From the human T2T-CHM13v2.0 reference genome, Homo sapiens: a DNA stretch of 64,000 bases. Every line of letters begins with the position of its first letter. Position 1 is the first letter of the stretch. A program made the position numbers and the translations under genes. The notes under the pieces were generated by a model. It worked only from the letters and a program-made list of their open reading frames with translations. It was not told the origin of the DNA and did no database searches. Positions 23,201 through 38,692 of the stretch are shown piece after piece. The stretch is from assembly GCF_009914755.1 (NCBI RefSeq), contig NC_060930.1, one strand, 5' to 3'.

Positions 23201-23377
<177 letters not shown>

Positions 23378-36780: not shown

Positions 36781-37710
36781 TTTACAATAAAACTGAAAAG
36801 CCCCGCTAGTCACACAAAATTCTGAGATAATCTGTAATACATATAATGCAATACAATGTAAATAACTATAGCTAGAAATGTCAAGTGCATACATACATCC
36901 CATTGCTACTCTCCCACACTGTTTCCCCGTCCATCCTGTCATTCTACTCTTCTATTTAATAATTGTTGCTCTGTTTACACTTCCTTTAAGTCGCCTTCCC
37001 ATTCCAAAACCTCCAATTCTCCTGAGAAATAAAAAGAAATGGGAAGCATTGCCTTATCTATGCTGCGTGAGGTCTAGAACTACACAAGAAGAATCAGAGG
37101 AGTCTGATACATGATCATGAAGCTCAGTATTGTTTTGATTTAAAGAAAGAATGCTATAACAAGACAACTGTGTCATAAATTCCCAGAACCATCTCAAAGG
37201 ATTAGAGACGGGACCCAAAATACAACCTTGTTATGTTTGTAATCCATTATGAAAAATCTACTCATTCTTGGGATCTCATCAGCACAAGGTGAGTTCCAAA
37301 ATTTCTCTCCTTGCTAATAAATAGTCCTTTGATTCACATCAGCTGCATTTATTAAACACCTAAGTAGCTTCCTTTCATCTGTCCTAAAGCTCTTTCAAAA
37401 ACTCTTCATTTTAATATTCCCCGATTCAGAGAGCAAGTCCATTTTTAACCAATTTGTATTTTTCATGTTTCATTTAAATCTGTCTTAGCCTGTATTTTTT
37501 TCATTCAACTGTATCCAAATGGTAGCATTTCAACATTAACATCCAGCATACCTTCAACTATTTTTTTTTTACATTCTTCTCTCTGTAATTTCCAGTTTCA
37601 TTAAATATTTTTGGAAGCACAATGAACAAAACTCCCAATAACAGAGGAAGCACCAAAAAACATCATTAGTACATGGATAAGCACAGGTTTAGGATTTGAT
37701 TTCAATACCC

Positions 37711-37983
37711 TTTTTTTTTTTTTTTTTTTTGAGACAGAGTTTCACTCTTATTGCCCAGGCTGGAGTGGAATGTTGTGATAGCTCACCGCAACCTCCACCT
37801 CCCAGGTTCAAGCATTTCTCCTGCCTCAGCCTCCCAAATAGCCCGGATTACAGGCATGTGCCACCACGCCCAACTAATTTTGTATTTTTAGTAGAGATGG
37901 GGTTTCTCCATGTTGGTCAGGCTGGTCTCGAACTCCTGGCCCCAGGTGATCCGCCAGCCTCGGCCTCCCAAAGTGCTGGGATT
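37711..37983 (-). mobile_element. AluSp-like, 5'-truncated
   Basis: Antisense dimer ending at gctgggatt; TSD ttcaataccctt (37701-37712, 38007-38018). Confidence 0.93.
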
Positions 37984-37984
37984 C

Positions 37985-38008
37985 GTGTAGTATCTGTTCT
38001 TATCAGTT
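37985..38008 (+). pseudogene. U2 snRNA fragment (nt ~31-54) fused to the Alu 5' junction
   Basis: GTGTAGTATCTGTTCTTATCAGTT is identical to the U2 branch-point-recognition region as recalled. Confidence 0.88.
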
Positions 38009-38536
38009 CAATACCCTTCTTAAAAATGCAAAACATCAAATTTATTTTTCACGTAAAAAGGAAATCAATATATTTTAAATACTCTAAACCAAGCCTAGTT
38101 AAGATGTGTTTCTGGCACAGTGGTCAACTAAATATGGCAATCAGTTTGAACAATGCCACTTAAGGTAATCATGTATATAAAGATGTTATAAATATTTTGG
38201 TGTCAGAAATAAAATTGAATAATGTCAAGAGATGACTTTTCATAAGGGAGTTTTAAATATATCTGAAAATAGCCCATAACCAAATATATTCTTATTGTAC
38301 CATATAAAAATCTATTGCTAAAAATATATGTATCTGTCCAGTCATCCATGCATCCAAACAGAAGGCAGAAATATTTTCAATAACGTATTCTAGTAATAGT
38401 CTAAACTTCACATATTGTATGAGCTAGACTAATGACTTCTATCCTCGCAGGACTTTTTTTACAATTGTTTCAGGGCACTATACCTTTTTAAAGCTAGTAT
38501 ATACTTAATGCTTAATAATGCAGAAAAATTCACTCA

Positions 38537-38692
<156 letters not shown>

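What the first reader, a model, noticed from the sequence alone, without database searches (positions are those of the whole stretch)
37701..38018. Alu-U2 snRNA chimeric insertion consistent with twin priming on a second RNA
Seen: one TSD pair (TTCAATACCCTT) encloses a 5'-truncated antisense Alu plus 24 nt of U2 (GTGTAGTATCTGTTCTTATCAGTT) in the opposite orientation. The right TSD (TTCAATACC) mimics the continuing U2 sequence (TTTAATATC); both differences become G:U wobbles if the minus-strand 3' end anneals to U2 RNA. Known: snRNA chimeras such as U6/L1 are usually co-oriented, and twin priming normally uses one RNA. Inference: the first nick primed Alu RNA while the second nick primed internally on U2, i.e. 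twin priming in trans.
Basis: partly seen in the sequence, partly recalled or inferred. Interest (0 to 1): 0.8.

Follow-up and report, generated by a model that had tools for sequence, protein, structure and literature searches.

The report
Alu insertion carrying inverted U2 piece
An old Alu insertion in an ATG5 intron carries a 22-24 base backwards piece of U2 snRNA at its far end, best explained by the second DNA nick priming on a bystander U2 RNA, which is a rare but already published by-product of LINE-1 activity.

Summary
A 12-nt exact direct repeat (37701-37712 / 38007-38018) encloses poly(T), an antisense Alu lacking about its first 26 nt, one orphan C, and 22 nt identical to U2 snRNA nt 31-52 in the opposite orientation. 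Two more bases are shared with the repeat.

The right repeat can pair with U2 nt 53-62 as 10 contiguous pairs, 3 of them G:U. Window 12-mers reach this with P about 1e-4 to 8e-4. The junction is unique in the genome.

The U2 piece ends in the stem-loop IIa loop, where all 43 other 3'-truncated U2 copies examined also end (nt 48-63).

It is not new. Doucet et al. 2015 described inverted U1, U2, U5 and U6 chimeras with L1 or SVA and proposed this model. Law and Burns 2025 extended it to tRNA and 5S.

Two things are modestly new. The partner is an Alu, and the piece is shorter than the 26-nt detection limit used in 2015. I found a second Alu/U2 case (chr3) and five U2/L1 cases in the same genome.

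An empty site in outgroup primates could not be tested here.

The parts
37701..37712 (+). Left target-site duplication, TTCAATACCCTT. Its 3' end is the first-nick primer that was extended on the Alu poly(A).
   Evidence: repeat family D3.
37713..37730 (-). Alu poly(A) tail, read as T18 on the + strand.
37731..37983 (-). Alu body, sense on the - strand, lacking about its first 26 nt. It differs by 11.9% from the majority of 14 window Alus (8.6% outside CpG).
37984..37984 (.). Orphan base C at the Alu/U2 junction. It matches neither the Alu (the window Alus have the complement of T here) nor U2 nt 30 (A).
37985..38006 (+). U2 snRNA nt 31-52 in sense on the + strand, 22 of 22 identical. On the - strand it is the cDNA made from the second-nick 3' end.
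38007..38018 (+). Right target-site duplication. Its complement is the second-nick 3' end. The first 2 nt equal U2 53-54, and 10 contiguous pairs (3 of them G:U) are possible with U2 53-62.
38019..38026 (+). CTT followed by AAAAA. If the duplication is read as 15 nt with one mismatch, the first nick falls at TCTT/AAAAA, an L1 endonuclease-type site on the Alu side.
   Evidence: The endonuclease consensus 5'-TTTT/A is as quoted in PMC4476161.

Best explanation
This is one L1 ORF2p-mediated insertion event that used two RNA templates. The first nick, on the + strand at the right end of the target TTCAATACCCTT(CTT), primed reverse transcription on the poly(A) of an Alu RNA. That cDNA stopped at Alu nt 27. 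The second nick, on the - strand 12 nt to the left, released the 3' end ...AAGGGTATTGAA. This end annealed to the loop of stem-loop IIa of a bystander U2 snRNA (nt 53-62). It was extended by 22 nt towards the U2 5' end, stopping just before A30. The two cDNA ends were then joined with one untemplated or mutated base, and gap filling produced the duplication. Shown here: the anatomy, the identity of both pieces, their opposite orientation, the pairing register and the uniqueness of the junction. Inferred: the order of the nicks, the annealing itself, and that both pieces arrived together.
For: (1) On the - strand the sequence made directly after the duplication is antisense U2 nt 52 to 31. That is what extension of the second-nick 3' end on U2 RNA would give.
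(2) There are 10 contiguous pairs in exactly the continuing register, P about 1e-4 to 8e-4.
(3) The U2 breakpoint (52/54) lies in the 8-nt loop of stem-loop IIa in the Rfam consensus structure. All 43 other non-full-length copies carrying the 22-mer end at U2 nt 48-63, and 37 of 43 end at 52-60. By my reading, 22 of the 43 are stand-alone copies with an adjacent exact repeat of 8 nt or more that usually overlaps the U2 end.
(4) Six further loci have the same architecture. L034 is an Alu with U2 30-53 and a 15-nt duplication with 1 mismatch. L018, L024/L053, L025/L054, L047/L055 and L051/L056 are L1 pieces of about 190-1450 nt with 14-16 nt duplications. The L1 identity and its opposite orientation rest on an ORF2p match of E 4e-56 and on blastn.
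(5) The junction 22-mer occurs once in the genome, so there is no source locus.
(6) The same model is published for snRNA/L1 chimeras, with the same hallmarks.
Against: No outgroup genome is held, so joint arrival is unproven.
The two cDNAs share no microhomology at their junction; there is an orphan C.
The endonuclease site is canonical only under the 15-nt, one-mismatch reading. Under the exact 12-nt reading it is CCTT/CT.
Three of the 10 pairs are wobbles, and the test was defined after seeing the data.
The other six chimeras show only 0-4 paired bases at this junction.
The 22-nt U2 piece and both 12-nt repeats carry no change, while the Alu is 8.6% diverged outside CpG. By my arithmetic, P of no change in 46 nt is about 0.016. 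Part of the Alu divergence is probably inherited from its source or reflects the mixed reference.
Confidence: 0.8

Rival explanations
1. Filler capture. A free U2 cDNA or RNA fragment was caught as 5' extra nucleotides when the truncated Alu cDNA was joined to the target by end joining, with no priming from the target end.
For: 11.7% of 5'-truncated Alu insertions carry 5' extranucleotides (PMC2912911). There is an orphan C and no microhomology at the Alu/U2 junction.
Against: This does not predict the orientation, the breakpoint in the U2 priming hot spot, or the 10-pair register with the duplication.
Confidence: 0.1
2. Two steps. An ordinary Alu insertion came first. A later break at its 5' end was repaired with a U2-derived patch, with loss of 26 nt of the Alu.
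For: The U2 piece has no substitutions while the Alu is 11.9% diverged.
Against: It needs a break exactly at the Alu/duplication border that leaves the right duplication intact. The pairing register would be a coincidence. 22 nt without a change is not unusual (0.914 to the power 22 is about 0.14, my arithmetic).
Confidence: 0.06
3. Copy of a pre-existing composite, by 5' transduction or a chimeric RNA, or by template switching as in U6/L1 chimeras.
For: None specific. Co-oriented snRNA chimeras are the common kind.
Against: The junction is unique in the genome. The pieces lie in opposite orientation, which a single RNA or a template switch on sense U2 cannot give. The anchored pattern search finds only this locus.
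Confidence: 0.02

Closest known systems
Inverted snRNA/L1 or SVA chimeras assigned to twin priming (Doucet et al. 2015, PMC4476161; their Group IV 'twin' cases: U1/L1, U2/L1, four U5, one U6)
   Same: One duplication encloses both pieces. They lie in opposite orientation. The snRNA is 3'-truncated in a single-stranded segment next to the duplication, and the snRNA is complementary to the target there. The endonuclease-type site is on the retroelement side.
   Different: The partner is an Alu. That paper found only two U6atac/Alu cases and discussed them only as possible template-switch or two-event products, not as twin priming. The U2 piece here is also strongly 5'-truncated. At 24 nt it falls below their default 26-nt cut-off. 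Their Fig. 1B table and the PDF supplement were not readable here, so I cannot say whether their U2/L1 case is one of my five.
Antisense tRNA-half, 5S rRNA and U5/L1 chimeras (Law and Burns 2025, bioRxiv 10.1101/2025.02.02.635956)
   Same: An antisense small-RNA fragment lies at the 5' end of a retroelement insertion, with breakpoints in loops, and twin priming is proposed.
   Different: Their pipeline starts from LINE-1 insertions, so insertions led by an Alu are outside its scope.
Classical twin priming (5' inversion of L1; Ostertag and Kazazian 2001, as cited)
   Same: The second-nick 3' end primes reverse transcription, and two cDNAs are joined.
   Different: Classical twin priming uses one RNA twice. 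Here the second template is a different RNA.
Tailless (3'-truncated) U2 retropseudogenes
   Same: The same internal priming zone, U2 nt 52-60, with microhomology to the target.
   Different: Those are primed at the first nick and stand alone between their duplications.
U6/L1 template-switch or ligation chimeras
   Same: An snRNA and a retroelement lie inside one duplication.
   Different: Those are co-oriented and usually carry full-length U6. The orientation test is not met here.

Membership tests
Inverted snRNA/retroelement chimera by twin priming on a second RNA (Doucet 2015) | One target-site duplication encloses both pieces | tested here: met
   12 nt exact, or 15 nt at 93%.
Inverted snRNA/retroelement chimera by twin priming on a second RNA (Doucet 2015) | The snRNA lies in the opposite transcriptional orientation to the retroelement | tested here: met
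   U2 is sense on the + strand. The Alu is sense on the - strand.
Inverted snRNA/retroelement chimera by twin priming on a second RNA (Doucet 2015) | The snRNA is 3'-truncated in a single-stranded segment that abuts the duplication | tested here: met
   The break is at nt 52/54, in the stem-loop IIa loop of the Rfam consensus. This is the hot spot shared by 43 of 43 other truncated copies.
Inverted snRNA/retroelement chimera by twin priming on a second RNA (Doucet 2015) | The snRNA is complementary to the target at that junction | tested here: met
   10 contiguous pairs including 3 wobbles, P about 1e-4 to 8e-4.
Inverted snRNA/retroelement chimera by twin priming on a second RNA (Doucet 2015) | An L1 endonuclease consensus site when read from the retroelement side, plus a poly(A) tail | tested here: inconclusive
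   The poly(A) tail of 18 nt is present. The site is TCTT/AAAAA only if the duplication is 15 nt with 1 mismatch; otherwise it is CCTT/CT.
Inverted snRNA/retroelement chimera by twin priming on a second RNA (Doucet 2015) | Both pieces arrived in one event (empty site in outgroups) | not testable with these tools
   No primate genome other than the human assembly is held.
U6/L1-type template-switch chimera | The snRNA is co-oriented with the retroelement and upstream of it | tested here: not met
   The orientation is opposite.
Classical twin-priming 5' inversion | The inverted segment derives from the same RNA as the 3' segment | tested here: not met
   The inverted segment is U2, not Alu.
Stand-alone tailless U2 retropseudogene | The duplications directly flank the U2 piece alone | tested here: not met
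   The left duplication lies 272 nt upstream of the U2 piece, beyond the Alu (row WIN).

The most novel reading that the evidence does not exclude
Priming of the second-nick 3' end on abundant bystander nuclear RNAs may be a regular side reaction of ORF2p. It may occur at Alu integrations too, where no L1 RNA lies in cis. If so, part of the short '5' extranucleotides' at Alu and L1 junctions would be inverted small-RNA cDNAs too short for existing pipelines. In support, 7 of the 44 truncated U2 copies examined here are such chimeras, against the one U2/L1 case reported in 2015, and two of the seven are led by an Alu.
Probability: 0.35. Interest if true: 0.5.

Novelty: new member of a known kind. 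Interest (0 to 1): 0.3.

Why it matters
It gives sequence-level support that the free 3' end at the second nick can start reverse transcription on an unrelated RNA during an Alu insertion. It also shows that imperfect pairing, including dG:rU wobbles, in the U2 stem-loop IIa loop may be enough. That bears on how second-strand synthesis begins in LINE-1-type retrotransposition and on where unexplained extra bases at insertion junctions come from. As a single fixed intronic insertion it has no evident consequence for ATG5.

Tried and rejected
Old U2 pseudogene in the right flank: the Rfam U2 match is only 20.3 bits against a cut-off of 46, and it rests on the 24-nt stretch. blastn-short finds only U2 31-59. 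Rejected.

Source locus or transduction: the junction is unique in the genome. Rejected.

More Alu/U2 cases by an anchored pattern (an Alu 9-mer, 0-30 nt, a U2 13-mer): only this locus.

Shorter U2 pieces, by the exact 16-mer of nt 37-52: 50 hits, 8 not seen before.
- One lies in a full-length copy.
- Seven were fetched.
- Three of the seven belong to an unrelated repeat family.
- Two are bare 16-mers; the reversed control gave 2 hits.
- Two are ordinary truncated pseudogenes.
- None is a new chimera.

L010: an Alu lies next to U2 6-56 but appears to have a short direct repeat of its own, so by eye I read it as an independent insertion, not a chimera.

Pfam scan of three L1-derived reading frames: no family. 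The ORF2p match from solved structures was used instead.

Supplement of PMC4476161: the one spreadsheet searched had none of my terms, file 1 was not searched, and the PDF is unreadable here.

One literature search returned only unrelated papers.

Full report
**What is there.**
Read on the + strand, the stretch runs as follows.
- 37701-37712: TTCAATACCCTT
- 37713-37730: T18
- 37731-37983: an antisense Alu
- 37984: a single C
- 37985-38006: GTGTAGTATCTGTTCTTATCAG
- 38007-38018: TTCAATACCCTT again

The repeat finder reports the repeat as 15 nt at 93% identity (37701-37715 / 38007-38021), of which the first 12 are exact.

The Alu identity rests on three results. There are 30 blastn matches to other Alus of the window, and every near-full-length one starts at AATCCCAGC. 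A MAFFT alignment with 14 window Alus shows that the Alu head runs on for 26 nt in the two best-kept copies; 24 columns pass a 9-of-14 majority rule. A sub-threshold 7SL/SRP match lies on the - strand. The Alu differs from the majority of those 14 copies at 32 of 269 aligned positions (11.9%; 8.6% outside CpG), so it is an old insertion.

**The U2 piece.**
The window's assembly is held and searchable. The Rfam U2 model finds the chr17 RNU2 array at 193-197 bits. Its last two bases are also the first two of the right repeat, so 22 nt (31-52) are unambiguously inserted. The C at 37984 fits neither partner. The right flank is not an old U2 pseudogene. The Rfam U2 match scores 20.3 bits against a cut-off of 46 and rests on the 24-nt stretch, and blastn-short sees only U2 31-59.

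**Is the pairing more than chance?**
U2 53-64 is TTTAATATCTGA and the repeat is TTCAATACCCTT. That gives seven identities and three T-to-C differences, then two mismatches. If the complement of the repeat, which is the - strand 3' end left by a second nick, pairs with U2 RNA, the result is 10 contiguous pairs from the primer's 3' end, three of them dG:rU. Among all window 12-mers a run of 10 or more occurs at 9e-5. Among those that start with TT it occurs at 2.5e-4 to 8e-4. The repeat's best register anywhere on U2 is this one (10; the next best is 5). The test was framed after seeing the data, so these values are indicative.

**Geometry.**
The + strand reads repeat, poly(T), antisense Alu. 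So the + strand 3' end at the right edge of the target primed on the Alu poly(A). The - strand reads complement of the repeat, then antisense U2 from nt 52 back to 31, then sense Alu. So the first DNA made from the - strand 3' end is a cDNA of U2. This is what twin priming predicts, except that the second template is another RNA. If the duplication is read as 15 nt with one mismatch, the first nick lies at TCTT/AAAAA, an L1 endonuclease-type site on the Alu side. Under the exact 12-nt reading it is CCTT/CT.

**Context from the same genome.**
The 22-mer, with at most one mismatch, has 67 hits and the reversed control has none.
- 23 hits lie inside full-length U2 matches.
- One is the window.
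- The other 43 were fetched with 500-nt flanks.

All 43 are 3'-truncated. Their U2 matches end at nt 48-63, 37 of them at 52-60, and none runs further. The lower bound is set by the query; the upper bound is not. This zone is the 8-nt loop of stem-loop IIa in the Rfam consensus structure.

By my reading the 43 divide as follows.
- 22 are stand-alone copies with an adjacent exact direct repeat of 8-20 nt. Two pairs of these, L011/L012 and L044/L046, are duplicated loci.
- 6 have an antisense retroelement directly 5' of the sense U2 piece.
- 15 remain unresolved or are of other kinds. L027, for example, looks like a co-oriented chimera with an A-rich piece. L010 has a neighbouring Alu that appears to have a short repeat of its own.

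**The six other chimeras.**

| Locus | Partner | U2 nt | Duplication |
|---|---|---|---|
| L034 (chr3) | Alu with long degenerate poly(T) | 30-53, 1 mismatch | CTCCATC[C/T]CTTTCTT, 15 nt, followed by AAGAAG |
| L018 | L1, about 190 nt | 6-60 | 16 nt |
| L024/L053 | L1, about 830 nt | 14-56 | 14 nt |
| L025/L054 | L1, about 650 nt | 17-58 | 15 nt, 1 mismatch |
| L047/L055 | L1, about 850 nt | 25-55 | 14 nt |
| L051/L056 | L1, about 1450 nt | 16-55 | 14 nt, 1 mismatch |

In each L1 case the upstream copy of the duplication is followed by a T-rich run.

L1 identity and orientation were tested rather than assumed. A frame on the strand opposite to U2 in L055 matches solved LINE-1 ORF2p residues 1069-1157 at E 4e-56. 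The other L1 pieces align to that reference in minus orientation relative to U2 sense.

At the U2/duplication junction these six show 0-4 paired bases; the window's 10 is the longest. Counting the window, 7 of 44 truncated copies are inverted chimeras.

**Rivals.**
A source locus or transduction is excluded because the junction 22-mer occurs once in the genome. Orientation also excludes any single chimeric RNA or a template switch on sense U2. Capture of a free U2 fragment as filler remains possible: 11.7% of 5'-truncated Alu insertions carry extranucleotides (PMC2912911, passages read). But it predicts neither the breakpoint in the priming hot spot nor the pairing register. A later repair patch at the Alu 5' end would need a break exactly at the border and a coincidental register. 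Mild tension for the one-event reading: the U2 piece and both 12-nt repeats are unchanged, while the Alu is 8.6% diverged outside CpG. By my arithmetic P is about 0.016 for 46 nt. The mixed reference and changes inherited from the source element inflate the Alu figure.

**What is known.**
Doucet et al. [quoted passage not shown] Seven of them (U1/L1, U2/L1, four U5 with L1 or SVA, one U6/L1) are 3'-truncated, inverted, inside one duplication, and complementary to the target at the junction. Their endonuclease consensus appears only when read from the L1 side. They propose twin priming directly on the snRNA. They also show that truncations of stand-alone copies cluster in single-stranded segments.

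They found only two U6atac/Alu cases, which they discuss only as possible template-switch or two-event products and not as twin priming, and they comment on the rarity of snRNA/Alu chimeras. Their default cut-offs are 97.5% identity and at least 26 nt, so the 24-nt piece here would have been missed.

Law and Burns 2025 (bioRxiv 10.1101/2025.02.02.635956; abstract, passages and section 23 read) describe antisense tRNA-half, 5S and U5/L1 chimeras and again invoke twin priming. Their pipeline starts from LINE-1.

A full-text search for 'twin priming' + 'Alu' + 'U2 snRNA' returns only Doucet 2015. A search for snRNA + Alu + 'opposite orientation' + 'target site duplication' + chimera finds three records, which the tool lists as one work, the 2025 preprint. 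I therefore found no printed inverted snRNA/Alu case in the held library. Fig. 1B, the PDF supplement of the 2015 paper and the preprint's supplementary tables could not be read and may list some of the U2/L1 loci.

**Verdict.**
It is a new member of a known kind, not a new mechanism. The modest additions are four.
- The partner is an Alu, and there are two such cases in this genome.
- The pieces are very short.
- There is an unusually long wobble-containing priming duplex.
- This genome holds more inverted U2 chimeras than the one published.

The decisive test, outgroup empty sites, could not be run here.

Noticed in passing
window 37985-38018, - strand: ATG5 is transcribed from the - strand, so its intron between exons 38538-38665 and 23204-23282 carries the antisense of U2. 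That is 22 nt perfectly complementary to U2 nt 31-52, a span that includes GUAGUA (recalled as the branch-point-recognition sequence). With wobbles the complement extends to nt 62. It lies about 520 nt downstream of the donor side of exon 38538-38665. Whether it binds U2 snRNP or affects splicing is unknown.
   Followed up: no
window 37984-37985; L034:500: Both Alu-led chimeras have U2 cDNAs that end at nt 31 and nt 30, next to A30. A30 is the internal Am/m6Am site of U2 (bioRxiv 10.1101/2020.01.24.917575, passages read). The 16-mer scan found no piece starting at nt 32-37. With two cases, and with a 22-mer query that required nt 31, this is only a hint of a reverse-transcription stop.
   Followed up: partly
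L024/L053 and L047/L055 (chr13 and chr11): Two independent U2/L1 chimeras break the L1 within about 10 nt of each other, in the ORF2 C-terminal part. Short shared bases with U2 lie at the junctions (CTTTT; GAT), which suggests microhomology-guided joining of the two cDNAs.
   Followed up: partly
L027 (chr17:16313144): U2 20-55 is followed by about 40 nt that end in an A-rich run. An 18-nt duplication with one mismatch encloses this together with 19 unexplained bases 5' of U2. It looks like a co-oriented chimera of another kind.
   Followed up: no
L058, L059, L061: An interspersed repeat family carries by chance the exact 16-mer of U2 nt 37-52, with no further U2 similarity. It is a source of false hits in short-word scans for U2 pieces.
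   Followed up: partly
L011/L012 (chr1) and L044/L046 (chr11): These are pairs of truncated U2 copies with near-identical flanks. They are segmental duplicates rather than separate insertions.
   Followed up: no
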